Origin: a virus
IMG/VR virus record: IMGVR_UViG_3300025770_000006
Location: 96,001-160,000 of that record
Reading direction: 5' to 3' (one strand)
Length of the DNA stretch: 64,000 nucleotides
Shown here: piece after piece, positions 3,573-61,231 of the stretch
Layout of the letters: each line of letters opens with the position of its first letter
How positions within the stretch are numbered: the stretch's first letter is position 1
The notes under the pieces: generated by a model
What the model was told of the DNA's origin: nothing
Databases searched by the model: none
Seen by the model: only the letters and a program-made list of their open reading frames with translations
Program-made: the position numbers and the translations under genes

Positions 3573-3584
3573 AGGAGAACCACC

Positions 3585-21470: not shown

Positions 21471-21504
21471 AATGGACACACCTTTCATCTAAAAGATGAC
21501 GACA

Positions 21505-43593: not shown

Positions 43594-44292
43594 ATGGATA
43601 AATGTAAAAAATGTGGTGGTGTAGGCTACACACAAAAAGATAATGGACACATGGGTATGCCTCAAGCTATCCAATGCGATTGTGTTATTGATAAAGCCCT
43701 AGATGAACAAGCAGAGAGGGCATGGACACATTTAAGCGTAGCTCCCATTCGCAAGCGTTCTATGCTTAACGGTAAGGTTTCTAAGAACCTTGTCATCACA
43801 GCCACTACAGATCAGTTGAGATTACATCTTAGATCTGCGTTAGGAAATCTTAGGAATCCTAATGTGTTTGTCAAAGTCATTGGGGATCACACGCTCATGT
43901 CTTCTTGGCTAGGGTCTATGATGATTCAAGGGAAAGACATAGCAGACCCAGACTTTCAGAGAGACTTAAAAGTTTACTCTTTGGATGACCTTGCTGAAGC
44001 ACCGTATCTCATGGTGATAAGGCTTGGTACAAAAGTAGCACGAAATGCGGCTATGTCTGAGGTCGTTGTTGAAACGATTGAGATTCGAGAACATTTGAAG
44101 AAACCTACTTGGCTTATCATTGATCCCGACAAACCACTTGAGGAAGGGCATATTGCATGGAGTCAATTATTAGAGGACACGATTCACCCTTGGGATCGTA
44201 TAAACCTTAATGAAAATACTTCCTCAAGTCGTACCCGAACTTCAAAGAAAAGCGTATCTAATATGGGGCAACATAAGCGAGTGAAACTATGA
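43594..44292 (+). CDS. DnaC-like helicase loader (N-terminal Zn ribbon, degenerate AAA+)
   Basis: CKKCGG...CDC; directly upstream of and overlapping DnaB; no intact Walker A. Confidence 0.55.
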   Translation: MDKCKKCGGVGYTQKDNGHMGMPQAIQCDCVIDKALDEQAERAWTHLSVAPIRKRSMLNGKVSKNLVITATTDQLRLHLRSALGNLRNPNVFVKVIGDHTLMSSWLGSMMIQGKDIADPDFQRDLKVYSLDDLAEAPYLMVIRLGTKVARNAAMSEVVVETIEIREHLKKPTWLIIDPDKPLEEGHIAWSQLLEDTIHPWDRINLNENTSSSRTRTSKKSVSNMGQHKRVKL

Positions 44293-45815
44293 GTGATATT
44301 TTAAGAAGCATACTCCCAGATGAGCCAAGAGGTGATGACCCTAAGCTCATGTTTCAAAACTACTGTTCTCTTAAGGAGTCTGTCTTACGCTTTGACTTAC
44401 CCTCAGAAGTCAATGTGTTCGAGTATGTTGAGGACTTCACTCTCAAGCATGGTCATTTACCTTCGCAACAGGGAGTTAGAGAATACTTTGAAGAGAATCA
44501 ATCCTTTGATGAAGCAGATCGTATTCAACAGATCGCTAACCGACCAGTCTCTTATCGAGGTGACTTTGTATCCCTAATCGAAAGACGAGTTGAAGAAGGT
44601 CGGATGACTAAGTTAGCTTCTGTTATGGCTGACGCTAAAGTCATCGCTCGTACAGGGCTTGAGGTTAAAGAAGGTCGGACAAAGAAGATCATTAAGGGTT
44701 CAAGGGATGCGGGGAACTTCCTACTCAATGAGATTGCTAAGATAAACACCCCTACCTTTGGCTCTCGTATCGGGGGAGAAATCTTAGGTGATGGTGAAGA
44801 CTTTTGGAATGAGTATGAACGCACTTGTAATAAACAAACTGACATCCTCCCACAAACAGGGCTATCTATTATTGATAATGCTATCGGTGGGTTCAAGAGA
44901 AAAGAACTATACATCATGGCGGCTTTTACAGGTCACCTTAAATCTACCTCAAGTTTAAATTGGGTTTACAATCAGTCTGTCTATGGAGGGACTGATACAC
45001 TGTATTTCTCTCTTGAAATGCACTATACTCAATGTAGACGCATCATCTATGTCTATCATTCTATGCACCCTAAGTTCCGAGATAAGCGTATCGCTTTGGG
45101 TATACAGCAGGGTCAAACAGATGCAGGTATTGATCCAGACAAGATCAAAAAGGGAACACTTACAGAAGATGAGCGTTCTTACATGAGAGATGTCATTGAA
45201 GATCTCGACAACGGTATGAAACAAGGAAATTATGGGTCAATCCACATTGAGGTTGCCGATCCCGATGTTCTTGACTTCACAGTTGAAAACATCCGTACTA
45301 GAGCCGAGCTACTTTATCAAAAGGCCCCTTTCAAGATGATGGTGGTAGACCATGCTTTATTGGTCTCCCCTCGTAAGTGGGTAGCGTCCACTACGGATCG
45401 GTTAAATGAGGTCATCAGAGATCTTAAAAAGACATCTCTTGGATTTAATCGTGGTGAAGGTATTCCTGTCTTATGTCTGTTTCAGATCAGTCGTGAGGGT
45501 TATAAGTCAGCCGAGAAAAACGGTGGGTCTTACAACCTCACTCACTTGAGTTATGCAAATGAAGCAGAGCGTTCTGCTGATCTTGTGATCTCAAGTTGGT
45601 ATGGTGATGATAAGCGTGAGAACAGTTTGGTTAAATACCAATGCCTCAAGTCTCGTGACCAAGCCCCCTTTGAAGAGTTTGACGCACAAATCGCTTGGCC
45701 TTATGGTCGTATCCTCGATATGCCTTTACAGTTCCAAACGAACACCTCTTATAAGAGCAAAGGTAAAAAGACTGAAGTGTTTGACGATCCTTTAGACGCT
45801 CTCATGGATCTGTAA
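44289..45815 (+). CDS. dnaB: DnaB-like replicative DNA helicase
   Basis: AAFTGHLKST, YFSLEM, VVDH, FQISRE, ERSADLV. Confidence 0.85.
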   Translation: MSDILRSILPDEPRGDDPKLMFQNYCSLKESVLRFDLPSEVNVFEYVEDFTLKHGHLPSQQGVREYFEENQSFDEADRIQQIANRPVSYRGDFVSLIERRVEEGRMTKLASVMADAKVIARTGLEVKEGRTKKIIKGSRDAGNFLLNEIAKINTPTFGSRIGGEILGDGEDFWNEYERTCNKQTDILPQTGLSIIDNAIGGFKRKELYIMAAFTGHLKSTSSLNWVYNQSVYGGTDTLYFSLEMHYTQCRRIIYVYHSMHPKFRDKRIALGIQQGQTDAGIDPDKIKKGTLTEDERSYMRDVIEDLDNGMKQGNYGSIHIEVADPDVLDFTVENIRTRAELLYQKAPFKMMVVDHALLVSPRKWVASTTDRLNEVIRDLKKTSLGFNRGEGIPVLCLFQISREGYKSAEKNGGSYNLTHLSYANEAERSADLVISSWYGDDKRENSLVKYQCLKSRDQAPFEEFDAQIAWPYGRILDMPLQFQTNTSYKSKGKKTEVFDDPLDALMDL

Positions 45816-47035
45816 TGTTCTTTGAAATCGACAAACCTAAACTCCCACCCCTCAAGGAGCTGAACCTATTAGATAAGAACAACGAGTTCTCGATTCCGTC
45901 CGACCTGTGGGCTTCTATCTTAGACCAATACACGAAGCAAGAAATCATCGAGCATTTTTCGGATCTTATTGAGAACACTCCTGTGCCTTTCCCCTATAGA
46001 GTCTACGGTCTTGGAAATGTCCGTAAGGACTACCTAGAGCTTTGCTCTGATACAGTGAAATGGGAAGAAGAAAGATGGGAGGCACTAAGGACACCTAAAG
46101 ACCTTCCTATGCTCTATAAGGACAGGCCGATACACCTCGATTACATAAGTAAAAAAGGACTGTCTGTGTCGGATATGTTCACACAAGAAATACGAATGGA
46201 GTGTGGACATAAGTCAAGCCCATCGCCCACTCGACAATGGGATCGGGTTGGATATAAATCAAAAGTTAGACCCATCTTAAAAGTCTTGATGGGATTGAAC
46301 TTAAGTAGAACACTGAGGAGTGGTGTGTATAAGACTGCCATGTTTGATTGCCTCCGACTTGGTAGGTACATGGCGAGTCAGTTTAAGCCCTCTTGTGCTA
46401 AAGCTATCTACGATTTCTTTGGTGCAAAGAAAGTGTTAGACTTCAGTGCTGGTTGGGGTGATAGGCTGGTTGGCTTTCATGCCTCTGATGCCGAGTCTTA
46501 CATCGGCATAGATCCAAATACTAGACTCCACATTCAGTATAAAAAGATCTCCTCATTCTGTAACACCGATAAGGAGGTTAGGTTCATCTGCTCTCCTGCT
46601 GAAGATGCAGACTTATCTGATGTTAAAGTAGACTTCATTTTTACAAGCCCTCCTTATTTTGATACCGAGAGATATAGCCAAGAAGGAACTCAGTCGTGGA
46701 AGAGATACCCGACAATGAATGGATGGTTGAGTGGATTTCTTTACCCTACCCTCAATAAGAGTTGGGAAGCGTTAGAGGAAGGGGGTCGGATAGCAATCAA
46801 TATAACTGATGTTCTTGATGGGAGTCATTACTTAGAAATCATCAAACCGATGATTGAGTACATGGAGGGCTTAGGTGCTACTTATGAAGGAGTAGTCGGA
46901 TATAGGACGAAAAAGAGACCAGGCGAAAATCAAGGGATTGTTGGAGGGAGCGTGTTCTGCGAACCTATCTTCATTTGGTCTAAGGGGGAAGCTCTCGAAC
47001 CTAAGTGGCATCAAGATAACTACTTCGGAGTTTGA
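45815..47035 (+). CDS. DNA amino-methyltransferase (N4-C/N6-A), paralog 1
   Basis: motif I DFSAGWGDR, motif IV FTSPPYF. Confidence 0.88.
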   Translation: MFFEIDKPKLPPLKELNLLDKNNEFSIPSDLWASILDQYTKQEIIEHFSDLIENTPVPFPYRVYGLGNVRKDYLELCSDTVKWEEERWEALRTPKDLPMLYKDRPIHLDYISKKGLSVSDMFTQEIRMECGHKSSPSPTRQWDRVGYKSKVRPILKVLMGLNLSRTLRSGVYKTAMFDCLRLGRYMASQFKPSCAKAIYDFFGAKKVLDFSAGWGDRLVGFHASDAESYIGIDPNTRLHIQYKKISSFCNTDKEVRFICSPAEDADLSDVKVDFIFTSPPYFDTERYSQEGTQSWKRYPTMNGWLSGFLYPTLNKSWEALEEGGRIAINITDVLDGSHYLEIIKPMIEYMEGLGATYEGVVGYRTKKRPGENQGIVGGSVFCEPIFIWSKGEALEPKWHQDNYFGV

Positions 47036-47132
47036 CTATGAGACTCATTTATACTGTAGCCTTTATAAGTACAATACCTGTAAAGAACGCAGGGAAAGCC
47101 TGCCTCAATGCAGTCAATCTTTAGGAGAATGA

Positions 47133-48338
47133 ATGTTTTTTGATTATGAAAAAAAAGCCAAAGATAAGATAGACGAATATGAGGTTGTAAGAGGACAAGA
47201 GATCTTCATACAACCTCATCAGTGGTCAGAGATGCTTGATAAGTTTACTCGTGATGAGATCATCACTTACTTATCAACTAAGATCGAAGGGATACCATTC
47301 CCATATACTAAATATACTCCTCAAGAGGTGCATCGTGATTGGTTAGATGTTCAGTCCGACTATATGACACCAGTGGCAGGAGAGTGGGGATTACCTCGAT
47401 GTCAGTTAGAGGATGCTCATACTTACAAAGGTAGGTATCTTTACTTCGCACCTAATAACAAAGGACTCAAAGTCTCTAATCAGTTCACCGAGTTCGCAAG
47501 AGTATTAGTAGACCATCGAGAATATAAAAGTGCCATGACTCAATGGACTCGAATAGGTATGAAGGGCGATAAGAGATACTTCCTTAGACCCTTTTTCACC
47601 CTATACGACAGGTCTAAAGGGGTTAATAGGAAAATGCTCTTTAACGCTATAAATATGTCTTATTACATACCTGCTCAGTTCAAACCAACACTCTCCAAAG
47701 CCATGTATAACTTCTTCGGGGCAAAGAAGGTCTTAGATTTCTCTATGGGATGGGGTGATAGGCTAGTTGGTTTCCTCGCTTCTGACGCTCTGTCGTATGT
47801 TGGTATTGACCCTAATACAAAACTCCATGAGCCTTATGGACAAATAGATTCGTACTGTAATGCAAACAAAGAAACTAAGTTCATTTGTTCTCCAGCTGAG
47901 GATGCTGACCTAACTGATGTTAAAGTAGACTTTATCTTCACAAGCCCTCCTTACTTTGATACCGAGAAGTATAGCCAAGAAGATACTCAGAGTTGGAAGA
48001 GATACCCCAAAACAGATGACTGGCTCAATGGATTTCTTTACCCGACACTCAAGAAATGTTGGGAGGTATTAGAAGACGGAGGACGGATCTGCGTCAATAT
48101 CTCAGACAAGGTTTATGGTGATATACGAGTATGCCAACCCATGATTGAATACATGGAGTCATTAGGTGCTACTTACGAGGGAGTGATTGGTTATAGGATG
48201 TCCAAGAGACCAGGAAATCACCATTCATTGAACGAGGATCTGTCTAAGGTAAGTGTTTTTTGCGAACCTATTTTCATTTGGAGTAAGGGAGAAGCCCCCG
48301 AACCTAAATGGAATCAAGATAACTTCTTTGGGGTATAA
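47133..48338 (+). CDS. DNA amino-methyltransferase, paralog 2
   Basis: DFSMGWGDR, FTSPPYF. Confidence 0.88.
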   Translation: MFFDYEKKAKDKIDEYEVVRGQEIFIQPHQWSEMLDKFTRDEIITYLSTKIEGIPFPYTKYTPQEVHRDWLDVQSDYMTPVAGEWGLPRCQLEDAHTYKGRYLYFAPNNKGLKVSNQFTEFARVLVDHREYKSAMTQWTRIGMKGDKRYFLRPFFTLYDRSKGVNRKMLFNAINMSYYIPAQFKPTLSKAMYNFFGAKKVLDFSMGWGDRLVGFLASDALSYVGIDPNTKLHEPYGQIDSYCNANKETKFICSPAEDADLTDVKVDFIFTSPPYFDTEKYSQEDTQSWKRYPKTDDWLNGFLYPTLKKCWEVLEDGGRICVNISDKVYGDIRVCQPMIEYMESLGATYEGVIGYRMSKRPGNHHSLNEDLSKVSVFCEPIFIWSKGEAPEPKWNQDNFFGV

Positions 48339-48367
48339 TCCTATAAGGGTCTTGAAAGGATTTAAGT

Positions 48368-49600
48368 ATGTTCTTTGATTATGAAAAAACCAAAAAAGAG
48401 AACCTTGAAGAGTATGAGGTTTTGAGAGGGAATGAGATCTTTATCCCACCCCATCAGTGGCTAGAGATGGTAGATAGTTTTAGTAGAGATGAGATCACTG
48501 ATTATCTGTCTGCAAAGATTGAAGATTTACCTTACCCCTTCACTAAGTACACACCACAAGAGATCAAGAAAGATTGGTTAGAGGTTCAGTCCGATTACAT
48601 GATCCCGATTGAGGGTGCTTGGGGATTGCCACGATGTCAGTTAGACGAAGACCATACTTACAAAGGTAGGTATATTTACTTCGCACCTAATAACAAAGGA
48701 CTCAAAGTCTCTAATCAATATAGTGAACCTATGCGTTTAGAGGTAGACCATAAGCAGTTCCCAAGTGCAATGAGACAATGGACACGAACTAACCTCAAGT
48801 CCAAAAAGAGAGCGTTCCTTAGACCTTTATGGACATTGTATGATCCGTCAAAAGGTGTGAACAGCAAGATACTTGTAAACGCTATCGGTATGTCTGGTTA
48901 TATCCCAGCACAGTTCAAACCTACTTTAGCTAAGGCGATGTATAACTTCTTCGGGGCTAAAAGAGTATTGGATTTCTCTATGGGATGGGGCGATAGATTA
49001 GTTGGATTCCTATCTTCTGATGCCGAGTCCTATGTAGGATTAGACCCTAATACAAAACTCCATGAGCCTTATCAGAAGATCGCTGATTATTGTTCTACGA
49101 GTAAGACCACTAGGTTCATCTGCTCTCCTGCCGAAGATGCAGACCTGTCTGATGTTAAAGTAGACTTCGTTTTCACGAGTCCACCTTATTTCGACACCGA
49201 GAAATATAGTCAGGAGGAGACTCAATCATGGAAGCGTTATCCAGAGACTGATGATTGGCTGAATGGGTTTCTTTACCCAACCCTCAAGAAATGTTGGGAT
49301 TGCTTAGAAGAGGGAGGGAGGATATGCGTAAACATCTCTGATAAAGTCAGAGGAAACATACGAGTGTGTCAGCCCATGATTGAGTATATGGAGTCATTAG
49401 GTGCTACTTATGAAGGCGTGATTGGTTATCGGATGGCAAAGAGGCCAGGAAACCACCACTCTTTAAATGATGAGTTGTCCAAGATGGATGTTTTCTGTGA
49501 GCCGATTTTCATTTGGAGTAAGGGAGAAGCCCCCGAACCTAAATGGAATCAAGATACTTACTTTGGGGTGTGTGAGGTCGGTCATGTGGGGAAACCTTGA
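48368..49600 (+). CDS. DNA amino-methyltransferase, paralog 3
   Basis: DFSMGWGDR, FTSPPYF; very similar to paralog 2. Confidence 0.88.
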   Translation: MFFDYEKTKKENLEEYEVLRGNEIFIPPHQWLEMVDSFSRDEITDYLSAKIEDLPYPFTKYTPQEIKKDWLEVQSDYMIPIEGAWGLPRCQLDEDHTYKGRYIYFAPNNKGLKVSNQYSEPMRLEVDHKQFPSAMRQWTRTNLKSKKRAFLRPLWTLYDPSKGVNSKILVNAIGMSGYIPAQFKPTLAKAMYNFFGAKRVLDFSMGWGDRLVGFLSSDAESYVGLDPNTKLHEPYQKIADYCSTSKTTRFICSPAEDADLSDVKVDFVFTSPPYFDTEKYSQEETQSWKRYPETDDWLNGFLYPTLKKCWDCLEEGGRICVNISDKVRGNIRVCQPMIEYMESLGATYEGVIGYRMAKRPGNHHSLNDELSKMDVFCEPIFIWSKGEAPEPKWNQDTYFGVCEVGHVGKP

Positions 49601-50510
49601 TGTATCTAACTTAGATGTATTGACTCCATACATCGAGTCTGCTTTAGAGAGAAATCTCCTGTATTACAATCTCAACCCTTTTGAATTCCTAGCCTTTAAA
49701 ACAAAAGGCAACTTGTTCAAGATTGAAAACAATACCTTACATTTTGGTTGGCATGGTGTAATCGGAGCGAGGTTCTTAAAGCTCTACTTCCCCCCTATTC
49801 ACTTATACGGTGATGAAGAGATTGAAAGGGAATCTGTTTTAAAAGCTACAAATGAGGGATGCTCTTTGTGGATCGAAAAGGAGCACTCGAAGGCTTTAGG
49901 TGTCAAAGCCAAAACTATCTCGGAGTATCGAGGAGCTTATCAGCCCATATACCATAGAGACTATCAACTAGCGGGTAAGAAATATAAAAATATGAGGAGA
50001 GATAGAAATATCCTCCATTCTCTCATTGAGAGTGGTGAGTTAGAGTTTGTATTTGACTACCCCTTAAAAGGTCTTACAGGACTCAATAATGCTTGGCTAA
50101 GTCAGACTGGTCGTAAAAGGTCTGTGTTTGACTTTTGTCTTCAGAACGAAAAGCACCTCACACACAGGATCAAAAACCTAACCCTACTTAACAGAGATGG
50201 TGAGCCTATCACATCCTCTCTGTACGCTATATATTCACCAGATAAATGGCATTGTATAGGTGCGATCTCGGACTATGGGAAGATACCTATTGGTGGGTTG
50301 CAAAGACAGTCTGATCTGTATCTGTTTGAGTTGGAGGAAAAAGTCAACTTAGTGATGGTTGGTGGGTATAGCTATAAAGAGCTGAAGTTCTCTAAATTGG
50401 CATTACCACACAGTGTTTATAGGTTAGGCACACTACCTTCCAATATAACTGTGACCAAAGATATATGGGAGTCCTTTAGACCGAAGCCTCAGACCTATTT
50501 TGGAGTGTGA
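49584..50510 (+). CDS. DUF2156/MprF-C-like (GNAT-fold) aminoacyl-transferase-like protein A, 308 aa
   Basis: start moved to MWGNL (GAGGT RBS); LAGKKYKNMRRDRN and KFSKLALP match the LxGxKYxxxRxxxN and KxxxxP blocks. Confidence 0.6.
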   Translation: MWGNLDVSNLDVLTPYIESALERNLLYYNLNPFEFLAFKTKGNLFKIENNTLHFGWHGVIGARFLKLYFPPIHLYGDEEIERESVLKATNEGCSLWIEKEHSKALGVKAKTISEYRGAYQPIYHRDYQLAGKKYKNMRRDRNILHSLIESGELEFVFDYPLKGLTGLNNAWLSQTGRKRSVFDFCLQNEKHLTHRIKNLTLLNRDGEPITSSLYAIYSPDKWHCIGAISDYGKIPIGGLQRQSDLYLFELEEKVNLVMVGGYSYKELKFSKLALPHSVYRLGTLPSNITVTKDIWESFRPKPQTYFGV

Positions 50511-50511
50511 A

Positions 50512-51435
50512 ATGTGGAACTACCTAACCCCCAAAGACTTTGAGACATTGATACCTTACTTAAAGAGTGCAATACAACGAGGGTGGAAGTATTACGATCT
50601 CTGTGTGATAGATCGTATGTGGTGTTATAATAATCAAATCCTCTTCAAGATAGAGAACGACATATTATATGTGTCTAGGTTGCACCGCTTCATTAATAAC
50701 TTAATCCATAAGATGCAGTTCCCTCCAATCCACTTGTACGGTGATGAGGAACTTGAAAAGAAAGCCTTGCTAGGAGCTTTGGAAATAGGTGTGTCCGTAA
50801 ACGCCACAAAGCAAGTCGCAAAAGACCTCGGATTAAAATACACCTTAATGAGTCAATGGGATGGTGGGTGTGAAGTGGTCTATACAAAAGACCATCTCAA
50901 AATGGACGGTAAAAAATATGCAAAGCGAAGAGGTGAGTTAAACAAAATCAAAAGGTTGATTTCTAGCGGTCAACTCATGGTCAAACTCGATAGTGATTTA
51001 GATTCTTTGTACGGTCTGTTTCAAACATGGAAAAGGCAACAAGGGTACAAAACAGGGATGTATGAATACCTCCTTAAAAACAAAGAATACTTACCCTACT
51101 TAAAAGTCTTTAGTGTGCGTAACTCTGATAAGGTAGTGTTTGCATCTGTGTTCCTAAACATCGACAAATCGACTTGGATTTCCCCTTGCTCAATGACGGA
51201 TTATGAAAATACAGTTAGTGGGTTTCAAAGACTCTCTAAGATCCTCCTGTTAGATATGCAGGAAGATTTAGAAACGATCATCGAAGGTGGGTGGGTCACA
51301 GAAGAAATCAAAAGAGGAAAGACATTGATCCCTCACGAGATATGGAGGATCGCTAAAATCATAAGCCCCAAAAAGCTCTCGAAGATTGAGTGGGAGAGTT
51401 TTAAGCCAAAACCGAATACCTACTTTGGAGTTTAA
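50512..51435 (+). CDS. DUF2156/MprF-C-like aminoacyl-transferase-like protein B, 307 aa
   Basis: start moved to MWNYL; MDGKKYAKRRGELN; shares FPPIHLYGDEE with protein A. Confidence 0.6.
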   Translation: MWNYLTPKDFETLIPYLKSAIQRGWKYYDLCVIDRMWCYNNQILFKIENDILYVSRLHRFINNLIHKMQFPPIHLYGDEELEKKALLGALEIGVSVNATKQVAKDLGLKYTLMSQWDGGCEVVYTKDHLKMDGKKYAKRRGELNKIKRLISSGQLMVKLDSDLDSLYGLFQTWKRQQGYKTGMYEYLLKNKEYLPYLKVFSVRNSDKVVFASVFLNIDKSTWISPCSMTDYENTVSGFQRLSKILLLDMQEDLETIIEGGWVTEEIKRGKTLIPHEIWRIAKIISPKKLSKIEWESFKPKPNTYFGV

Positions 51436-51436
51436 T

Positions 51437-53449
51437 ATGTTATTTGAAACAACATTCAACGCTGAGAGTTTCTACAAGAAGTTTACACCAATCTTAAAAG
51501 AGATCTCTGTACCAGAAAACTTAGTGCCGTTTGCAGAGTGCTTATCCGAGTATCACGAACTAGACTTAGATATTTCCGTTGAGCCTAAAGTATTTGTAGA
51601 TCCACAAGATGGTGGCGACCAAAAAAAAGCCATCGTTCTTTTATCTGGAGGGATTGATAGTGCTTGGTGTCTCTTATGGGCTTTAGAACAAGGTCTGAAT
51701 CCACAACCTTTATTTGTGGATGGGCTGAACGCTTCTCAAAACTCTCGTGAGCGTAAAGCTGTCCAAGTCTTATGTGATAAGCTAGACCTGCCCCTCATCA
51801 CATATAAACACCCAACCCATCTCAAAAAGCTACATAAAGATCCGTCTAATATATTCAAGATACCAGAGAGCTTTGTGAAACTACAGTATGCTCTGATGGC
51901 AATCAAAGATGACATACGAAAAGAGGGCATAGCAGGGGTCATTGTCACCTGCCCTACTAACCAACCCGAATACATTGACCCTACTGCACCTAAGAAAGAA
52001 AATGGGGAACCGCTGACATGGTTTCAAGACTCAGAAGAGTCTATGGAAACTTTCTTACCGTTCCTCTCCGATTATATTGGGTGGGGTTTTAAAGGATACT
52101 ACCCTGTCACCATGAAAGAGCAGAAGATAAAAGCTCTAATGGACAAAGGGATCTTTGAAGATACCTGCTCGTGCGTATGCAATCCTATGTTCTTTTCGGG
52201 TCATCGTAAGAGATCAAAACCCAAGTATTCCAATATGTGCGGCGTGTGTTGGAAGTGCAAAGAAAACCTAGCTTTCATCAGTAAACTTAACCGAGATGAT
52301 GAAGTCGTTGAAGATGAGATGCCAGAAGAGCCTCAAATGAAACCTTGGCAAAAAGGATATGAGTTAGATTATCTTAAAAGCGTAGAGGGTCAGTTCAACG
52401 CTTTTAATGACCTGTGTATTTCCCCATTCCTACAGATGAAAAAAAATAAAGTCGCAGACCACTTACACGATGGCACTTTAATCCTTAAAGACGGATTTAG
52501 GTGCATCCTTAAAAAGTCTAAAACTAGAACGAGTATAAAAGTGTACTCGAATAGGGATCACACCCTCGCTTATAAAGATGTAGGCGAGTTCGCTATGGGT
52601 AAGTTAGTCATTGATGATGTGAGTGAGTTTAAAGAATACTGCGATAAGATTGATCAGAACATTTGGGTCATCAGCTTTGACTCGATTGAGAAAGATCTTC
52701 TCTCATGCGGGTTTGTTAAGCTAGGATATAAATACACCTCCTTTGGTGATGATCTCACTGTGTTCCTTTTGCAAAAGCAAATCGACTTTTTCGGTACGAA
52801 CACAAATAGACTAATCTTTAATGACCCTTTAGAAAGAGCTACCTGTGTGAAACTCGACTCCAACTTTGAGGTTGAGTCCATCGCAGATAAGTTAGCCGCT
52901 TACGAATTTAAGAAGCACTACTCCAACTACAATAGTGGTGGGTGGTCAGCTATCAGTCTAAGAGGGTTTAGCGATGACCCCTCCTTCATTATCAAACCAG
53001 AAGAGATGAATGATAAATGGACGGAGCAAAACTCAGAGACAGATTTCTATCTGAGAGACACCGAAGCGTATGAATATTTTAGCGAGGTAAGGGAGATCAT
53101 AAACACAGTCGCCCCAAACCAAAAGATCGAGAGGGTGAGAATAATGAAGCTCTCTGAAGGATCTGAGATTAAAAAGCATACTGATCTAGTAGATCCAGAT
53201 TGTGGTGTCGGGGTAGGAGAAACAGCAAGGTTTCATGTGCCGATTAAAACAAAAGATGCTGTCTTTGAGGTATGGGGACAAAATGGTAAAGAGTCATTCT
53301 CTTTAGAGAAGGGTTCTCTATGGTATCTCGACACAAGAAAACCACACCGAGTCATTAACCCAACCAGCGATAGATACCATCTTGTTTTTGATGTCTTTGT
53401 TGATCAAGAAATAAGAGAACTTATCAAGAGATGCTTAAATGTTCTTTGA
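51437..53449 (+). CDS. fusion of a QueC-like PP-loop ATPase, a central (GNAT-like?) domain and an Asp/Asn beta-hydroxylase-type 2OG-Fe(II) dioxygenase, 670 aa
   Basis: VLLSGGIDS, CSC...CGVCWKC; HTD...RFHVP...PHRVIN...RYHLVFD. Confidence 0.8.
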   Translation: MLFETTFNAESFYKKFTPILKEISVPENLVPFAECLSEYHELDLDISVEPKVFVDPQDGGDQKKAIVLLSGGIDSAWCLLWALEQGLNPQPLFVDGLNASQNSRERKAVQVLCDKLDLPLITYKHPTHLKKLHKDPSNIFKIPESFVKLQYALMAIKDDIRKEGIAGVIVTCPTNQPEYIDPTAPKKENGEPLTWFQDSEESMETFLPFLSDYIGWGFKGYYPVTMKEQKIKALMDKGIFEDTCSCVCNPMFFSGHRKRSKPKYSNMCGVCWKCKENLAFISKLNRDDEVVEDEMPEEPQMKPWQKGYELDYLKSVEGQFNAFNDLCISPFLQMKKNKVADHLHDGTLILKDGFRCILKKSKTRTSIKVYSNRDHTLAYKDVGEFAMGKLVIDDVSEFKEYCDKIDQNIWVISFDSIEKDLLSCGFVKLGYKYTSFGDDLTVFLLQKQIDFFGTNTNRLIFNDPLERATCVKLDSNFEVESIADKLAAYEFKKHYSNYNSGGWSAISLRGFSDDPSFIIKPEEMNDKWTEQNSETDFYLRDTEAYEYFSEVREIINTVAPNQKIERVRIMKLSEGSEIKKHTDLVDPDCGVGVGETARFHVPIKTKDAVFEVWGQNGKESFSLEKGSLWYLDTRKPHRVINPTSDRYHLVFDVFVDQEIRELIKRCLNVL

Positions 53450-54614
53450 ATATAAGACTGAACTTAACTCACTAGACGACATTGAATATATTAAAGATGG
53501 CTATCTTCACATACGCCCTAACGAATGGAGTATGCTTCGTGAGAAATATACTAAGGAAGATATCAAAGACCATATCGCACCCATCGTTGAGTCTTTACCT
53601 TATCCTTACTCTGAGTACACAACGGAGTCTGCAAAGAAGGACTTCATAAGCCTCAAAGCGAAAAAAGAGCCATTCGTATTTGATGAATGGGTAGCACCAC
53701 GCCAAGCTACTCCCCTAGAGACTACTTATCTAGGTAAGCACATTTACCTCAACAGCTATTACAAAGGTAAAGAGGTGTCTAACCTGTTCACTCAAGAACA
53801 GAGGATGAAATGTAGCTATCGCACACAAGGTAACTCACCTTATGACGAATGGGTCAACGCTAGTAAGAATAACTCGTTCCTACGATGCTTCTTCGGTATC
53901 TGTGAAAATGACATTTATGAGAGGGGTGGGGTCAATAAACAAACCCTTAGAAGAGCATTGAAGATGCACACATATATGGCTAGTCAGTTCAAAGCTGAGT
54001 CTGCTAAAGCTCTCTATGATCTGTTCCAATCTAAAAGCGTCTTAGATTTCTCAGCAGGTTGGGGTGATAGGTTAGTAGGCTTCCTAGCTTCAAATGCCGA
54101 CTCCTATATTGGGATTGATCCTAATACTAAGCTCCATGAACCATATCAGCAAATCGTCAACCTCTGTGATACAGGTAAAGAGGTTAGGTTTATTTGCTCA
54201 CCTGCTGAAAATGCTGACCTCTCTGATGTCAAAGTAGACTTTATCTTTACGAGCCCACCATACTTTGACATCGAAAGGTACAGTACAGAGTCCACACAAT
54301 CATGGAAGCGATACCCAGACCTTAAGGATTGGGTCAATGATTTCTTACTCGCTACCCTCACCAAGTGCTGGTCTGCACTTAAAGATGGTGGCCGGATAGC
54401 CATCAACATTGCGGATAAAAAAGGAGAGGACATCTGCACTCCTATGCTTGAACACATGAAGAATTTAGGGGCTACATATGAAGGGGTGATAGGATATCGA
54501 ATGTCTGAGCGTGGTGGTCAGAAAACAGATTGCCCTACTTGTGAGCCGATCTTTATTTGGAGTAAGGGTTTAACACCCGAACCTAAATGGAATTATAATG
54601 AGTATTTTTTTTGA
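53439..54614 (+). CDS. DNA amino-methyltransferase, paralog 4
   Basis: DFSAGWGDR, FTSPPYF. Confidence 0.88.
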   Translation: MFFEYKTELNSLDDIEYIKDGYLHIRPNEWSMLREKYTKEDIKDHIAPIVESLPYPYSEYTTESAKKDFISLKAKKEPFVFDEWVAPRQATPLETTYLGKHIYLNSYYKGKEVSNLFTQEQRMKCSYRTQGNSPYDEWVNASKNNSFLRCFFGICENDIYERGGVNKQTLRRALKMHTYMASQFKAESAKALYDLFQSKSVLDFSAGWGDRLVGFLASNADSYIGIDPNTKLHEPYQQIVNLCDTGKEVRFICSPAENADLSDVKVDFIFTSPPYFDIERYSTESTQSWKRYPDLKDWVNDFLLATLTKCWSALKDGGRIAINIADKKGEDICTPMLEHMKNLGATYEGVIGYRMSERGGQKTDCPTCEPIFIWSKGLTPEPKWNYNEYFF

Positions 54615-54623
54615 AGAGGTGTT

Positions 54624-55751
54624 ATGCAGTTATTTAACTACAAAAAAATAGGAGGTCAGACCCTTAAATCAAAAGTGGTCTTAGATCCTGTCGTTGAAAA
54701 AGTAGCAAGTGAGTCCGACTATAAGTTCAATGGTGAAACTTCATTTGTTGTACCTGAGTTTGATGTTCCTCCCGACTTCACATTAGGAGTGATATATGGG
54801 CCGAGTGGTTCGGGTAAGTCTACCCTCTTAAAAGAATTCGGAGAAGAAGCTGTTGGAGCATGGGATCAATCTTTAGCTATAGCTTCTCAAGTAGACCCAA
54901 ACCTACTCTTGAGACTCGGATTATCGTCTATCCCCTCTCTTTGCAGACCATATCATGTCTTAAGCACAGGTGAGAAACATAGAGCTGATATAGCTAAAAA
55001 CCTAACAAATGGATGTGTCATAGATGAGTTCACTTCTGTGTGTAATCGAGACTTCGCTCAATCAATCTCTGTGGGACTGAGGAAAGTCATAGATCATTAC
55101 GGATATAAAAATGTGGTCATCGCTACCTGCCACGAAGATGTCATAAATTGGTTAGAACCAGATTGGGTTGCTAACACATTAACGAGGCGGCTCGTAGAAG
55201 GGAGGTCGGAAAGGCGATCTTCAACTTTTAGAGTTCTACCTTGCTCAGTCGAAGTCTGGTCAATCTTCAGCGACCATCATTATCTGAGTGGAGATCTCAA
55301 CAAGGGTGCTCATTGTTGGCTACTCATCAACGAAAATAATACAATCTGTGGCTTCATGTCTGCGATTGCATTACCAGGAGGGAATGTACGCAATGCTTGG
55401 AGAACACATCGAACAGTAATCTTACCCGACTTTCAAGGTATGGGATTAGGGTCAAGACTGTCTAATGCTATAGCTAAGATGTACTACGATAAAGGATGTC
55501 GATTCTTCGGTAAAACTGCACACCCAAAGCTCGGTGAACATCGAAACAACTCTGAACTATGGAAACCCACAAGGAATAATAGAGTCAGCAACAAGAGTAT
55601 GTCCTATGAAAAAATGAAGGACTCCAAATACTCTAAAAAGTTTCTGCAAAAGCACAACAATAGAGTATGTTATGCACATGAATATATTGGCGATGGAACT
55701 ATGAACTTGAAAGGTCAAGAGCCAAAAAAAGAGCATACTCCATTCTTTTGA
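54624..55751 (+). CDS. ABC-type ATPase fused to a GNAT acetyltransferase
   Basis: GPSGSGKST, LSTGE signature, IDEFTS; RTVILPDFQGMGLG acetyl-CoA motif. Confidence 0.85.
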   Translation: MQLFNYKKIGGQTLKSKVVLDPVVEKVASESDYKFNGETSFVVPEFDVPPDFTLGVIYGPSGSGKSTLLKEFGEEAVGAWDQSLAIASQVDPNLLLRLGLSSIPSLCRPYHVLSTGEKHRADIAKNLTNGCVIDEFTSVCNRDFAQSISVGLRKVIDHYGYKNVVIATCHEDVINWLEPDWVANTLTRRLVEGRSERRSSTFRVLPCSVEVWSIFSDHHYLSGDLNKGAHCWLLINENNTICGFMSAIALPGGNVRNAWRTHRTVILPDFQGMGLGSRLSNAIAKMYYDKGCRFFGKTAHPKLGEHRNNSELWKPTRNNRVSNKSMSYEKMKDSKYSKKFLQKHNNRVCYAHEYIGDGTMNLKGQEPKKEHTPFF

Positions 55752-56334: not shown

Positions 56335-56383
56335 TATAAAGAAACTACAAATCCTCGTCATATTCCTGTTGAGCGAGGATTAA
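56335..56383. repeat. short copy of the late motif plus the 3' end of the actin-like gene (matches 56843-56895 except for a 4-bp deletion)
   Basis: TATAAAGAAACTACAAAT...CCTCGTCATATTCCTGTTGAGCGAGGATTAA. Confidence 0.85.
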
Positions 56384-56796
56384 GCCTCTTTTACTTCAAT
56401 CTCTTTATGGTCATAGATAACTTGGAAAGTCATCTTATGAACATAATTTTCAACCCCAAAAAGTTGAAGTTTTCTGGGTCTATCCATCGTACACTTAACC
56501 TCAACTATTAGATCCCCAGCAAGATTAATAGATCGATACCCAAGAACTTTAATGTCTAAGTCGTCTGGTGTGTCTTCGGGAATATCAAAATCAAAAAAAC
56601 CCTCGATGCCCAAGAAAAAGTCATATAAAGCGTCTTCTACCCAGTTTGATCTAACTCTTGACCCCGATAGTTTGCTTAAATCTTTTGCTATCGTGGTGGA
56701 TAGGCTCTTGAGGGTTTCTTCCCGACTTGATTGTTTTTCAAGTCTAGCGATTCTTGACTCAAGGTTACGGATAATTTCACTAGCTGATCTTCTCAT
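56380..56796 (-). CDS. MRRSASE-leader protein 4 (138 aa)
   Basis: MRRSASEIIRNLESRIARLEKQSS; late motif at 56844-56855. Confidence 0.85.
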   Translation of the reverse strand: MRRSASEIIRNLESRIARLEKQSSREETLKSLSTTIAKDLSKLSGSRVRSNWVEDALYDFFLGIEGFFDFDIPEDTPDDLDIKVLGYRSINLAGDLIVEVKCTMDRPRKLQLFGVENYVHKMTFQVIYDHKEIEVKEA

Positions 56797-57005: not shown

Positions 57006-57395
57006 TTAACCAACAATGACAGTGTTAGGTCGATCAACCATGTTTGTTTGATACCTGTCCATTAACTCCGCATCAGTATCGAGGATGGCTTTGTTAATTT
57101 CTACTTCAACGCAAAAATGCACTTTGCTTGACGAGATTGTCTTTACATTAGAGACAATACCCATTTGCCGAAGGTTTACCATATCAGACATGAAAGAGGA
57201 AACTGCTGATTTTAGAGTAGATGGATAAAGGTGCGTGAAGCAATACTCATTAGCATGGGAGTTAAAATTCATTAAAATAACACATTCATCTCCGTCAATT
57301 ATTCTGGTATTGTATGCCGCAGTTTTACTTTTACCTTCAAGTCGTGCGATCCTAGACTCAAGATTTCTGATTACTTCACTAGCTGATCTTTTCAT
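57006..57395 (-). CDS. MRRSASE-leader protein 5 (129 aa)
   Basis: start moved to MKRSASEVIRNLESRIARLEGKSKTA; late motif at 57444-57455. Confidence 0.85.
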   Translation of the reverse strand: MKRSASEVIRNLESRIARLEGKSKTAAYNTRIIDGDECVILMNFNSHANEYCFTHLYPSTLKSAVSSFMSDMVNLRQMGIVSNVKTISSSKVHFCVEVEINKAILDTDAELMDRYQTNMVDRPNTVIVG

Positions 57396-57469
57396 TATAG
57401 TTCTCCATTTTGTTAAGGTTAAAGAGATCACTTAAGACCAATTATAAATAAACTATTAACCTTGACAGC

Positions 57470-58471
57470 TCAATCCTCGTCATATTCCTGTTGAGCGAGG
57501 ATTAACATACCCTTAGAGACAGCATGGAGAGGGTCTGACGCATGACGAACCTCTGAGATCTCGATAGGGAAACGCTTTTTCTTAGTCTCAAAGACCTCCC
57601 TAAAGAAGTCCATGAATCCACCTGCGAGACTTGTACCACCACCCACTACGATTGGAATGGGTTTGTTAAGGGTGAGGTGTCCACCTTTCATCACAAACTG
57701 CTGTGCGATGTTATCTAAAGCGTGTTCAATAAGAGCCTTATAATAGAACGAGATCGCTTCTTCTTCTCTATTCTTAGGTGCTTTAAGGTCAATGCCCTTC
57801 TCTTTTACCGCACACATTTTAGAAGCTGTTGCACCTACTGATCGAGCCGCTCCTTGATCAATCCAATCACCACCACGAGCAACGGAGAAGGATAACCCCT
57901 CAATGGTGCTGATAGCGAGAGCGATATTGGTCATACCAGAACCGAAACTAATCCCGACACCAGAAAAACCTTCCTTTGCAGTCTCTGCGAAGACGATAGC
58001 CATAGCTTCGTTGGCGGGGTGTGCAGTATATCCACATTCTTGAACGATGCGAGTGAATACACCCTTATGATAAACAACATCCATATTAGCGTCCACAGGA
58101 GCCGCAGGGATTGAGAAATAACAATGCTCTCCCTCATGGCTAGGGTCACCGAGAACATCTTTGACCATATGTCCGAGAACGGTAAGGGAGTCGATCTCAT
58201 CAGCAGAGATAAGACCTGCTTTAAGGGGTCTACGACCTTCTCTACCGAACATATTAGCTACTTCCATAGCTTCATCCCCAAGTACAAGTAGATTGTCGTC
58301 AGCTTCGATGTATGACACCGAGCCGAGTTTGAGCATCTTTTTAGCCGAAGATGGGAGATCAATAAAGAGGTCACGCATCCTTCTTAGAGTTACTTCATTT
58401 TTCTTAGCACCACTCATGCGAGCAGACACCAAGTTCATAGTTCCAATGTCAAGTCCTACACCTTTACTCAT
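57470..58471 (-). CDS. actin-like ATPase (MreB/ParM/FtsA superfamily)
   Basis: phosphate-1 GLDIGT, connect-1 NEAMA, phosphate-2 ISFGSGMT, adenosine VGGGTS. Confidence 0.85.
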   Translation of the reverse strand: MSKGVGLDIGTMNLVSARMSGAKKNEVTLRRMRDLFIDLPSSAKKMLKLGSVSYIEADDNLLVLGDEAMEVANMFGREGRRPLKAGLISADEIDSLTVLGHMVKDVLGDPSHEGEHCYFSIPAAPVDANMDVVYHKGVFTRIVQECGYTAHPANEAMAIVFAETAKEGFSGVGISFGSGMTNIALAISTIEGLSFSVARGGDWIDQGAARSVGATASKMCAVKEKGIDLKAPKNREEEAISFYYKALIEHALDNIAQQFVMKGGHLTLNKPIPIVVGGGTSLAGGFMDFFREVFETKKKRFPIEISEVRHASDPLHAVSKGMLILAQQEYDED

Positions 58472-60191: not shown

Positions 60192-60656
60192 ATGAGCGAT
60201 AAATGGAAAGCAGGACCTGAAGTCCAAGAGCAGATTAATCATCTCATCGGAAACGCACACCCACACTTGGCTGACATCATGAATGACATTGTAGTCATCT
60301 TTAAAGAGAAGTGTTCACGCAAGGGTGGTCGCCCTATTCTCGGTAAGACCTCAAAAGCACCAGGGATCTTGTCTGTCCTTGGGGATCACGCATACGAGTT
60401 TGTCATTGAGCTTGGGGCAGACTGTTGGAACAACCTTAAAGAGAATGAGCGTATGGCTCTACTTGACCATCTTCTCTGCTTCATCGGAGGTGAAGAAGAC
60501 GAGAAATCGGGTGAGATGAAGTATTATCTCTCGACTCCCGATGTCTTTTATTTCTCTGAGGAAGTTGCTCGTAATGGGAGTTGGCGTGAGGAGATCCTAC
60601 CCGATGGTGTACCCGAAGAGGGTTCAGACGCACCTTTGTTAGACCCTATCGGTTAA
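60192..60656 (+). CDS. phage metallopeptidase-like protein with a degenerate HExxH motif
   Basis: ALLDHLLCF in place of ALxDHELxH; GGAGG RBS. Confidence 0.65.
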   Translation: MSDKWKAGPEVQEQINHLIGNAHPHLADIMNDIVVIFKEKCSRKGGRPILGKTSKAPGILSVLGDHAYEFVIELGADCWNNLKENERMALLDHLLCFIGGEEDEKSGEMKYYLSTPDVFYFSEEVARNGSWREEILPDGVPEEGSDAPLLDPIG

Positions 60657-61231
60657 AGGTCTAACCACCTTTTGAGTTCATTGCGATAGTTCTCACCCTT
60701 GTTGATGTAGTGGCTAACGATTTCATTAGACATGAACCTCATGTGGCATCCGATTGTCCAACGAAGATCACCCTTTCGATCAATCGAAGCATTTTCAAGT
60801 GTCAACATGAAATGGGGATCTTCAGACCCATCAAGAAGTGTTCCTGACTGTAGCACTCGCCGATAATCCCCACCGCTCAGTTTAAATGCCTTTCGTCTAG
60901 GGTCAAACTTTACATACTTTGGGAAAGTCTTATCAAAGGATTCTGATACGGTACCATCAGTATCGAGCTTATGTAGTGATGAAAGAATCTTCATAATATC
61001 TACAACTTCGTCATACAACTCGATATACAACTCTTGGGTAGGGGTGGTTTCTTCTTCTTGTCCAAAGTAATCATCTTTAAAAATCTTTGAGTCATCTTCA
61101 TAGTATGATCTCTCTGCGTCATACATATTAGAGTCAAAATAACCTTGTGGGTATCCTGCTGTCCTTTGGTTTTCAAGACGAGCGATTCTTGACTCAAGGT
61201 TTCTGATTACTTCTGATGCTGATCTTCTCAT
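60653..61231 (-). CDS. MRRSASE-leader protein 6 (192 aa)
   Basis: MRRSASEVIRNLESRIARLENQRTA; TAGTTTACCTAT motif at 61286-61297. Confidence 0.85.
   Translation of the reverse strand: MRRSASEVIRNLESRIARLENQRTAGYPQGYFDSNMYDAERSYYEDDSKIFKDDYFGQEEETTPTQELYIELYDEVVDIMKILSSLHKLDTDGTVSESFDKTFPKYVKFDPRRKAFKLSGGDYRRVLQSGTLLDGSEDPHFMLTLENASIDRKGDLRWTIGCHMRFMSNEIVSHYINKGENYRNELKRWLDL

What the first reader, a model, noticed from the sequence alone, without database searches (positions are those of the whole stretch)
45815..55751. Shared terminal FF/YFGV docking-like peptides on eight consecutive enzymes of four unrelated folds
Seen C-termini: QDNYFGV, QDNFFGV, QDTYFGV(+9 aa), PQTYFGV, PNTYFGV, NEYFF, HTPFF. 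Seen N-termini: MFFEID, MFFDYE twice, MLFET, MFFEYK, MQLFNY. An internal QIDFFG occurs in the QueC fusion. Methyltransferases and DUF2156-like proteins are not homologous, yet end in the same TYFGV. Established: sliding-clamp-binding peptides (PIP box QxxLxxFF, beta-clamp QLxLF, T4 LDFLF) are terminal aromatic pairs. Inference: a common tag recruits the modifying enzymes to one hub such as the phage clamp or helicase, coupling modification to replication. Caveat: in the two DUF2156-like genes the GGA-G codons double as the next gene's RBS, but other copies use GGG-G and the YF is not explained that way.
Basis: partly seen in the sequence, partly recalled or inferred. Interest (0 to 1): 0.8.

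Follow-up and report, generated by a model that had tools for sequence, protein, structure and literature searches.

The report
Clamp-docking tails on phage DNA-modifying enzymes
Seven of eight neighbouring DNA-modification enzymes of this giant phage carry the same short, flexible C-terminal tail ending in Tyr/Phe-Phe(-Gly-Val). The tail most likely hooks them onto the phage's own sliding clamp so that new DNA is modified as it is copied, but binding has not been measured.

Summary
Seven of the eight proteins encoded at 45815-55751 end in [YFP]F(F|GV). None of about 52 other window ORFs does.

The tail is an add-on. Most homologues of the methyltransferase-like family and of the P-loop+GNAT family stop at the catalytic core. 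The tail persists at 32-48% identity with synonymous codon changes.

In an 84-kb relative, five consecutive enzymes of four families carry it. Homologues in other lineages carry a canonical beta-clamp motif (Qxx[LM]F-COOH) at the same place. In T4-like phages they carry a copy of that phage's own DNA-polymerase tail.

Relatives collinear with the window encode a confidently predicted DnaN-type clamp. I therefore read the tails as clamp-binding peptides that couple modification to replication.

Three parts of the finding do not hold as tags:
- The N-terminal MFF is inherited family sequence in four paralogues.
- The internal QIDFFG lies inside the cupin module.
- The QueC-cupin fusion has no tail.

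Physical binding is untested, and the window's own clamp gene lies outside the 64 kb. Earlier notes of this scan describe similar tails in other phage genomes. I rate it a new variant of a known kind.

The parts
44289..45815 (+). DnaB-type replicative helicase gene. Its stop overlaps the start of g1 (TAATG). It marks the cluster as replisome-linked.
   Evidence: Pfam DnaB_C E 1e-15; junction sequence
45815..47035 (+). g1, methyltransferase-like paralogue (N-terminal domain plus SPPY methylase core). Tail ALEPKWHQDNYFGV at about 46991-47032.
47133..48338 (+). g2, methyltransferase-like paralogue. Tail APEPKWNQDNFFGV at about 48294-48335. AlphaFold2 places the last core strand at residues 376-384. 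Residues 385-401 are coil with falling confidence.
48368..49600 (+). g3, methyltransferase-like paralogue. Tail ...QDTYFGV followed by 9 extra residues. The DNA reads GTGTGTGAG where relatives stop directly after GV, so the usual stop appears shifted out of frame.
49584..50510 (+). g4, DUF2156/LPG_synthase_C-like paralogue. Tail RPKPQTYFGV at about 50478-50507.
50512..51435 (+). g5, DUF2156/LPG_synthase_C-like. Tail KPKPNTYFGV at about 51403-51432. FGV is invariant in orthologues at 32-48% identity.
51437..53449 (+). g6, QueC-like PP-loop fused to a cupin (Asp/Arg-hydroxylase-like). It has no C-terminal tail. The internal QIDFFG is part of the cupin module.
53439..54614 (+). g7, methyltransferase-like paralogue. 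Tail TPEPKWNYNEYFF at about 54573-54611. Its start ATGTTCTTTGA contains the stop of g6.
54624..55751 (+). g8, P-loop plus GNAT enzyme (phrog_11143). After the family core ...HEYIG comes a 19-residue linker and tail, DGTMNLKGQEPKKEHTPFF, at about 55692-55748.

Best explanation
The block downstream of the helicase gene is a DNA-modification gene cluster of a jumbo phage. Relatives are 227-376-kb viral contigs.

Seven of its eight enzymes carry a short extension beyond the catalytic core. It consists of a Pro/Lys/Glu-rich flexible linker and a terminal motif, (Q-x-x)-[Y/F]-F-(G-V).

I read this as a clamp-binding peptide. It would insert into the hydrophobic cleft of the phage-encoded DnaN-type sliding clamp that stays on freshly replicated DNA. 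Methyltransferase-like, aminoacyl-transferase-like and P-loop/GNAT enzymes would then be concentrated on new DNA and modify it as it is made.

The tag is portable. Enzymes of unrelated folds that join the cluster acquire it, and its sequence changes with the type of clamp used by the phage lineage.

Shown here:
- the tails and their add-on nature
- their conservation
- their replacement by canonical clamp motifs in homologues
- the presence of a beta-type clamp in close relatives

Inferred: that the tails bind that clamp, and that this couples modification to replication.
For: (1) The tail is an add-on.
- Of 79 IMG/VR homologues of the methyltransferase-like family, most end at ...FCEPIWIWEKK with no tail. 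The window's clade adds EPKWxQDx[YF]FGV.
- In the P-loop+GNAT family (1387 homologues, 120 read) the core ends ...HEYIG. About half then stop. The rest add a 20-30-residue linker and a hydrophobic end.
- The AlphaFold2 model of g2 has its last core strand at 376-384 and a low-confidence coil after it.

(2) Selection acts on the peptide, not the DNA.
- Codons differ: TAC TTC GGA GTT, TTC TTT GGG GTA, TAT TTT GGA GTG.
- FGV is invariant in DUF2156-like orthologues at 32-48% identity.
- The tail is kept in methyltransferase paralogues at 39-50% identity.

(3) Unrelated enzymes share the tail within a lineage. In L119, five consecutive genes after DnaB end ...DNFFGV (MTase-like)...KQVDLFGI (Dam/D12)...QEYFF (classic N6_N4 MTase)...ENFFGV (MTase-like) and ...QDNFFGV (P-loop+GNAT). 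L005 has a Dam-like protein ending KQLDLFGL. L001 has one ending YSLLFF.

(4) The tail flavour switches to known clamp motifs in homologues.
- P-loop+GNAT relatives at 70-75% identity end QDNFFGV.
- Those at 50-65% end in the canonical beta-clamp motif Qxx[LM]F-COOH, for example QLTLF, QLNLF, QQETLF, QPSLF. Nonlabens phage P12024S ends QISLF.
- In T4-like Aeromonas phage AsFcp_2 the homologue ends SGLDFMFGI, and that phage's PolB ends TSLTDLFGDW.
- In G016, which has a gp45-type clamp, the MTase-like homologue ends SPLSKFFQ and the PolB ends SSLDNFFI.

(5) A clamp is present in relatives.
- G001, G002 and G004 encode a 401-421-aa protein. Its profile hits PDB beta clamps at E 1e-9.
- Its AlphaFold2 model has pLDDT 95.4 and matches bacterial DnaN structures at TM 0.75-0.83.
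- The window is collinear with G002 over 72% of its bases at 79% nucleotide identity.
- L116 has a homologous clamp, and its two P-loop+GNAT paralogues end QQQSLF and QQETLF.

(6) Precedent in the literature: QL(S/D)LF as the beta-clamp motif and DNMT1-PCNA (PMC9690074); T4 alpha-glucosyltransferase binds gp45 (PMC13216743).
Against: - No physical or modelled interface is established.
- The motif departs from the canonical one. Position 2 is Asp. G-V follows the aromatic pair. g4, g5, g7 and g8 have no Gln in register.
- The window's own genome is not available, so its clamp gene has not been seen. Clamp presence is transferred from relatives at 79-93% identity.
- The lineage's replicative polymerase is family A. 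Such polymerases often work without a clamp, and its C-terminus (...INALLD...ITILF) does not carry the FFGV tail.
- g6 has no tail. In relatives the thymidylate-synthase-like, PP-loop and PLP enzymes also lack a clear tail.
- In G002 only the six methyltransferase paralogues carry FFGV. In that genome the tag is therefore not demonstrably shared across folds.
- The contigs of tail-less lineages that showed no clamp are fragments, so that correlation is weak.
Confidence: 0.6

Rival explanations
1. The tails are a docking tag, but for another hub. Candidates are the DnaB-type helicase, the family-A polymerase, a single-strand-binding protein, or a dedicated scaffold that assembles a modification factory.
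For: The cluster starts with an overlapped stop/start on the helicase gene. The polymerase is family A, which classically does not need a clamp. The motif is not canonical for beta clamps. The polymerase N-terminus MF[ADS]D[FM]L resembles the MFF[DE]Y N-termini of the methyltransferases, hinting at other shared contacts.
Against: Homologues in other lineages carry canonical beta-clamp motifs or copies of the T4-type polymerase tail at exactly this position. Both kinds of motif are known clamp ligands. The lineage does encode a clamp. Nothing specific links the tail to the helicase.
Confidence: 0.17
2. The shared tail is a by-product of cassette shuffling and translational coupling. The 3' ends of methyltransferase genes, with GGAG serving as the ribosome-binding site for the next gene, were fused onto incoming genes by recombination at conserved junctions. 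On this view the peptide has no function.
For: The cluster is mosaic. L001 and L003 replace g4-g6 and g8 by thymidylate-synthase-like, PP-loop and PLP genes. L104 holds a chimeric 66-aa remnant. The cupin gene is 87% identical between contigs whose DUF2156-like genes are 34% identical. In g4 and g5 the GGAG of Gly-Val lies 8 nt upstream of the next start codon.
Against: The codons of the tail differ synonymously between copies. FGV is invariant at 32-48% identity. g1 and g2 are followed by 97-nt and 29-nt spacers with their own ribosome-binding sites. P-loop+GNAT relatives keep QDNFFGV in other gene contexts. Homologues elsewhere carry different but functional-looking motifs at the same place.
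Confidence: 0.06
3. The tail is a C-terminal degradation or timing signal, or a targeting signal (capsid packaging or a compartment), shared by enzymes that must be removed or relocated together.
For: Hydrophobic C-termini can act as degrons (general knowledge). The tag sits on a flexible linker. The phage is a jumbo phage with a cytoskeletal gene nearby (Volactin family).
Against: This does not explain why homologues carry canonical clamp motifs or copies of the polymerase tail. No protease or import-system link was found.
Confidence: 0.06
4. The tail acts within or between the enzymes themselves, for example by strand exchange for oligomerisation or as an autoinhibitory plug, rather than on a common hub.
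For: Both ends of the methyltransferase paralogues are conserved and predicted flexible. Residues 1-5 and 399-401 have pLDDT below 50.
Against: The same tail occurs on unrelated folds. It is absent from most family members with intact cores.
Confidence: 0.05

Closest known systems
Bacterial beta-clamp-binding motif clients (QL[S/D]LF pentapeptide; Pol II, IV, V, Pol III alpha and delta, MutS/MutL, Hda; review PMC9690074)
   Same: A short hydrophobic peptide with Gln and a terminal aromatic, at the extreme C-terminus on a flexible linker, shared by unrelated proteins. Homologues of g8 and Dam-like neighbours carry near-canonical versions (QLTLF, QLNLF, KQLDLFGL). A DnaN-type clamp is encoded by the lineage.
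   Different: The clients are DNA-modifying enzymes rather than polymerases or repair proteins. The local motif is Q-D-N-[F/Y]-F-G-V or just [Y/P]-F-F. The clamp is phage-encoded and divergent (12-17% identity to solved clamps). Binding is untested.
C-terminal gp45-binding epitopes of T4/RB69 gp43, gp33 and gp55 (my knowledge of the T4 literature; gp33/gp55-gp45 in PMC9690074)
   Same: A terminal acidic/aromatic peptide used by several unrelated proteins to share one clamp. T4-like homologues of both the MTase-like and the P-loop+GNAT families end in a copy of their own polymerase's tail (SPLSKFFQ against SSLDNFFI; GLDFMFGI against SLTDLFGDW). The window's DNFF core resembles SSLDNFFI.
   Different: No gp45-type clamp was found in the window's lineage. 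The clamp there is a three-domain beta type.
T4 alpha-glucosyltransferase binding to gp45 (Sommer et al. 2004, as cited and confirmed in PMC13216743)
   Same: A phage post-replicative DNA-modifying enzyme that physically binds the phage sliding clamp.
   Different: That case is a single enzyme with no defined shared terminal tag. The 2026 study found that the interaction is not the main determinant of the modification ratio. Here a whole battery of enzymes bears one portable tag.
DNMT1-PCNA (PIP-box-mediated maintenance methylation; PMC9690074)
   Same: A DNA methyltransferase tethered to the replication clamp so that new DNA is methylated behind the fork.
   Different: It is a eukaryotic, internal PIP box (Qxx[IL]xxFF). 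The PIP spacing is not met by the window's tails.

Membership tests
beta-clamp-binding motif (CBM) clients | Short linear motif Q-x-x-[L/M/F]-[F/L] at a terminus or in a disordered segment | tested here: inconclusive
   g1-g3 have Q-D-[NT]-[YF]-F, then G-V. g4/g5 (PQTYFGV, PNTYFGV), g7 (NEYFF) and g8 (HTPFF) lack Gln in register. The tail of g2 is predicted to be coil with low pLDDT. Homologues carry canonical forms.
beta-clamp-binding motif (CBM) clients | A beta-type (DnaN-fold) sliding clamp is available in the same system | tested here: inconclusive
   Found in relatives G001, G002 and G004, with which the window is collinear. No genome is held for the window itself, and the gene is not within the 64 kb.
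beta-clamp-binding motif (CBM) clients | The peptide binds the hydrophobic cleft between clamp domains II and III | not testable with these tools
   This needs a binding assay or a co-structure. The one modelling job gave no verdict (see Tried and rejected).
T4-type gp45-binding C-terminal epitopes | A trimeric gp45-type clamp encoded by the phage | tested here: not met
   PF09116 and PF02916 gave no match in G001-G005, including the 100%-complete G002. The same search does find gp45 in G016 and G017.
T4-type gp45-binding C-terminal epitopes | The tail copies the C-terminal tail of the phage's own replicative polymerase | tested here: not met
   The family-A polymerases of the lineage end ...INALLD...ITALFS or ...ITILF, not FFGV. 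The feature is met in T4-like homologues.
PCNA PIP box | Q-x-x-[ILM]-x-x-[FY]-[FY] spacing | tested here: not met
   In PKWNQDNFFGV the Gln lies 2 residues before FF instead of 5. With FF at positions 7-8, position 1 is Lys and position 4 is Gln.
N6/N4 DNA methyltransferases (Pfam PF01555) for g1-g3 and g7 | Pfam match above the gathering score, plus SAM-binding and (S/D)PPY motifs | tested here: met
   g2, g3 and g7 score 28-38 bits against a cut-off of 26.7. g1 scores 22.5 bits, below it. TSPPYF and DFSxGWGDRL are invariant in 22 paralogues. The substrate and the group transferred are untested.

The most novel reading that the evidence does not exclude
A phage-encoded beta clamp serves as a tool-belt for an interchangeable set of DNA-(hyper)modification enzymes. 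The set includes non-methylase chemistries: aminoacyl-tRNA-transferase-like DUF2156 proteins and P-loop+GNAT enzymes. The C-terminal tail acts as a plug-in adaptor that any newly acquired enzyme must gain. The adaptor co-evolves with the clamp type (Qxx[LM]F, QDNFFGV, or T4-like LxxFF). It can therefore be used to predict which uncharacterised phage enzymes act on replicating DNA.
Probability: 0.45. Interest if true: 0.75.

Novelty: new variant of a known kind. Interest (0 to 1): 0.62.

Why it matters
If the tails bind the clamp, DNA modification in these phages is physically coupled to replication. That would explain how a phage protects every new copy of a several-hundred-kb genome from nucleases in time.

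The tag would also give a sequence-only criterion for recognising enzymes that act on DNA rather than on nucleotides or other substrates. This matters for families of unknown chemistry in this cluster: DUF2156-like proteins, P-loop+GNAT (phrog_11143), and the methyltransferase-like family with an extra N-terminal domain.

It extends the known client list of bacterial-type clamps to DNA-modifying enzymes, in parallel with DNMT1-PCNA. The claim is directly testable with peptides and a purified clamp.

Tried and rejected
(1) Complex prediction. I submitted the G002 clamp (two copies, 60-row alignment) with residues 372-401 of g2 (result). The verdict was 'no answer': runs of 0.31, 0.41 and 0.31 against a mark of 0.32, with controls at 0.00-0.02. 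I use it neither for nor against binding.

(2) The 232-aa CxxC protein upstream of DnaB (43594-44292). It gave a weak DNA_pol3_beta_2 hit (E 0.003-0.04). A profile search of PDB found nothing clamp-like, and Pfam found nothing. I rejected it as a clamp. It may be a helicase loader.

(3) Internal QIDFFG of g6 as a fusion-junction remnant. Rejected, because it lies inside the cupin module, which exists as a separate gene. The 314-aa protein of L104 and the 607-aa protein of L004 are not homologues of the g6 N-terminal half.

(4) Pfam searches in G001-G005. No match for DnaN N- and C-terminal domains, gp45, PolB or Pol III alpha. The clamp was found only through a homologue noticed in L116.

(5) Close phage relatives. 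Megablast of the cluster against 50,697 phage records found no match. A pattern scan for g5 in viral contigs found nothing.

(6) Clamp presence against tail absence. Ten tail-less lineages showed no clamp, but their contigs are 16-79% complete. This is only weak support.

(7) No whole genome is held for the window. A proteome-wide scan was therefore done on the complete relative G002 instead.


Full report
**What is there**

The window is a fragment of a jumbo phage. No whole genome is held for it. It has no near match among deposited phage genomes. It is collinear with IMG/VR contigs of 227-376 kb: 72% of its bases align to the complete 375,691-bp contig G002 at 79% nucleotide identity.

Directly after a DnaB-type helicase gene (44289-45815) come eight genes on the + strand:
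- g1, g2, g3 and g7 are about 400-aa paralogues. Each has an N-terminal domain of unknown function and an N6/N4-methylase-like core with invariant DFSxGWGDRL and TSPPYF motifs.
- g4 and g5 are paralogues with weak similarity to the LPG_synthase_C/DUF2156 aminoacyl-transferase domain.
- g6 is a QueC-like PP-loop fused to an Asp/Arg-hydroxylase-type cupin.
- g8 is a P-loop plus GNAT enzyme (phrog_11143, E 1e-86).

**Check of the observation**

Seven of the eight proteins end in [Y/F/P]-F followed by F or G-V. g6 does not. None of about 52 other ORFs in the window ends this way. My Fisher arithmetic gives about 2e-8, but the seven proteins represent only three independent families.

In the complete relative G002 (435 crude ORFs) the FFGV or YFF ending is confined to six methyltransferase paralogues. 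With that proteome's residue frequencies, an unrelated protein would end in [YF]FGV with probability of about 1e-5. The identical YFGV on the DUF2156-like proteins is therefore not chance.

The similarity extends upstream of the aromatic pair:
- ...EPKWxQDx[YF]FGV on the methylase-like proteins
- ...[RK]PKPxTYFGV on g4 and g5
- ...EPKWNYNEYFF on g7
- ...QEPKKEHTPFF on g8

Two parts of the observation do not stand as tags.

First, the N-terminal MFF[DE]. It is encoded as ATGTTYTTTGA, and in two cases it overlaps the upstream stop codon. It is shared by four paralogues. It is also conserved family-wide, including in distant tail-less members that begin MYLDYF....

Second, the internal QIDFFG of g6. 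It lies about 150 residues inside the cupin module, which exists as a separate 367-aa gene, 87% identical, in L104.

**The tail is an optional add-on under selection**

Of 79 IMG/VR homologues of the methylase-like family, most end at the last core strand (...FCEPIWIWEKK). Only the window's clade (L001-L006) adds the 14-16-residue tail. A second clade (L007-L013, L016) adds a different tail ending SPL[NS]KFFx.

An AlphaFold2 model of g2 (mean pLDDT 87) places the last strand at residues 376-384. Residues 385-401 are coil with falling confidence, below 50 at 399-401.

In the P-loop+GNAT family the core ends ...C[YF]SHEYIG. About half of the 120 best homologues stop within a few residues of this. 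The rest add a 20-30-residue linker rich in K/E/Q and a hydrophobic end.

Selection is on the peptide:
- The Tyr/Phe-Phe-Gly-Val codons differ synonymously among g1-g5.
- F-G-V is invariant in DUF2156-like orthologues that are only 32-48% identical (...KNKFGV...ETFFGV).
- Methylase-like paralogues at 39-50% identity keep the tail.

The double use of GGAG as a ribosome-binding site applies only to g4 and g5. It cannot explain the rest.

**Unrelated enzymes of one lineage share the tail**

The 84-kb relative L119 repeats the finding independently. Its five consecutive genes after DnaB are:
- an MTase-like protein ending ...DNFFGV
- a Dam/D12-class protein ending ...KQVDLFGI
- a classic 238-aa N6_N4 methylase (Pfam E 1e-41) ending ...QEYFF
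- a second MTase-like protein ending ...ENFFGV
- a P-loop+GNAT protein ending ...QDNFFGV

L005 has a Dam-like protein ending KQLDLFGL. L001 has one ending YSLLFF.

Not every enzyme is tagged. In L001 and L003 the positions of g4-g6 and g8 are occupied by thymidylate-synthase-like, PP-loop and PLP enzymes without a clear tail. This would fit enzymes that act on nucleotides or small molecules rather than on DNA, but that is my inference.

**The tail flavour tracks the clamp**

P-loop+GNAT family:
- Relatives at 70-75% identity to g8 end QDNFFGV, the same tail as g2.
- Relatives at 50-65% identity end in the canonical bacterial clamp-binding motif at the extreme C-terminus: QQETLF, QLTLF, QLNLF, QPSLF, QGSLF. 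The motif is given as QL(S/D)LF in PMC9690074.
- Nonlabens phage P12024S ends QISLF.
- The homologue in the T4-like Aeromonas phage AsFcp_2 ends SGLDFMFGI. That phage's family-B polymerase ends TSLTDLFGDW.

Methylase-like family:
- The clade with the SPL[NS]KFFx tail belongs to contigs G016 and G017. These are the only ones of twelve searched that encode a gp45-type clamp.
- In the complete G016, the polymerase ends SSLDNFFI and a neighbour of the clamp loader ends SSLEGFFD.

So in two enzyme families, homologues in T4-like phages carry a copy of the polymerase's C-terminal tail. From my knowledge of T4 and RB69, that tail is the gp45-binding epitope.

**A clamp in the window's lineage**

Pfam models for DnaN and gp45 found nothing in five related contigs. 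A 402-aa protein noticed in L116, beginning MKVVVAQKDLK, has homologues in G001, G002 and G004.
- Their profile matches PDB beta clamps at E 1e-9.
- The AlphaFold2 model has mean pLDDT 95.4.
- Foldseek aligns it to bacterial DnaN structures at TM 0.75-0.83, E 1e-21.

L116, which has this clamp, carries two P-loop+GNAT paralogues ending QQQSLF and QQETLF. The lineage's polymerase is family A.

**Interpretation**

The best-supported reading is that the tails are clamp-binding peptides. They would tether post-replicative DNA-modifying enzymes to the phage's beta-type clamp.

Precedents exist: DNMT1 on PCNA (PMC9690074) and T4 alpha-glucosyltransferase on gp45 (PMC13216743). In the library I searched I found no description of a shared terminal clamp tag on a battery of phage modification enzymes. 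Earlier notes of this scan report similar tails (K-L-F, FF) on methyltransferases of other phages. Those are unchecked AI notes, but they suggest the phenomenon recurs.

**Open weaknesses**

- Binding is unmeasured. The single complex-prediction job gave no verdict (see Tried and rejected).
- The local motif is non-canonical.
- The window's own clamp gene has not been seen.
- A family-A polymerase without the tail leaves room for another hub.

I put 0.6 on the clamp reading and about 0.8 on 'a docking tag for some shared partner'.

**Side observations that may bear on the N-terminal question**

- Residues 1-5 of g2 (MFFDY) are also predicted to be flexible.
- The lineage's polymerases begin MF[ADS]D[FM]L.
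- 71 of 120 P-loop+GNAT homologues have 'LF' within their first 10 residues, against a background of 0.7% per 10-residue window.

A second, N-terminal contact is therefore possible, but nothing here tests it.

Noticed in passing
window 20346-20897, 20907-21488, 22568-23482, 56380-56796, 57006-57431, 60653-61231 (all - strand): Six small genes with unrelated bodies begin with nearly the same N-terminal leader, MRRSASE[IV]I.NLE.RIARLE. Relatives (L003, L104, L106) have more copies.
   Followed up: no
window 57470-58471 (-): An actin-like protein matches Pfam Volactin over its full length (E 5e-75). This is a cytoskeletal gene in a jumbo phage.
   Followed up: no
window 49585-49600: g3 runs 9 residues past YFGV. 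The DNA reads GTG TGT GAG..., whereas relatives read GTG followed directly by a stop. An extra TG appears to have shifted the usual stop out of frame. The extension overlaps the start of g4.
   Followed up: partly
window 6699-15818 (+): A single 3039-aa ORF sits in a region of strong positive GC skew (0.29-0.43). I did not analyse it. Other ORFs of 816-1462 aa nearby have no Pfam match.
   Followed up: no
L104:10968-11305: A 66-aa ORF begins like a methyltransferase (MFLFEYEKN) and ends like a decayed g8 tail (LKGQEPKSIKETF...). It is followed by a truncated T5orf172 fragment. These are scars of cassette turnover in the cluster.
   Followed up: no
L003:13612-16022 and L001:12635-15045: In close relatives the slots of g4-g6 and g8 are filled by a thymidylate-synthase-like, an Asn-synthase/QueC-like PP-loop and a PLP-dependent (PALP) enzyme. 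The cluster therefore swaps whole chemistries between otherwise collinear phages.
   Followed up: partly
L100-L104, L119 (family-A polymerases of the lineage): The polymerases share a conserved N-terminus, MF[ADS]D[FM]L, and about 135 residues beyond the Pfam polymerase domain, ending ...I[NT]xL[FLI]x. Either end could be the polymerase's own clamp contact.
   Followed up: no
P0005-P0124 (g8 family): 71 of 120 homologues have an N-terminal x-[DQ]-L-F motif within the first 10 residues, including many that lack any C-terminal tail. It could be an N-terminal clamp motif or a structural element.
   Followed up: partly
L121:873-1493 and 3004-3978 (G002): The phage clamp gene is flanked by a 206-aa SMC/RecF-like ATPase fragment and a PD-(D/E)XK nuclease. 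L116 has the same arrangement. This suggests a clamp-recombination module.
   Followed up: no
window 43594-44292 (+): A conserved 232-aa protein with an N-terminal CxxC...CxC motif lies between the SNF2 helicase and DnaB genes. It has no family match and may be a helicase loader.
   Followed up: partly
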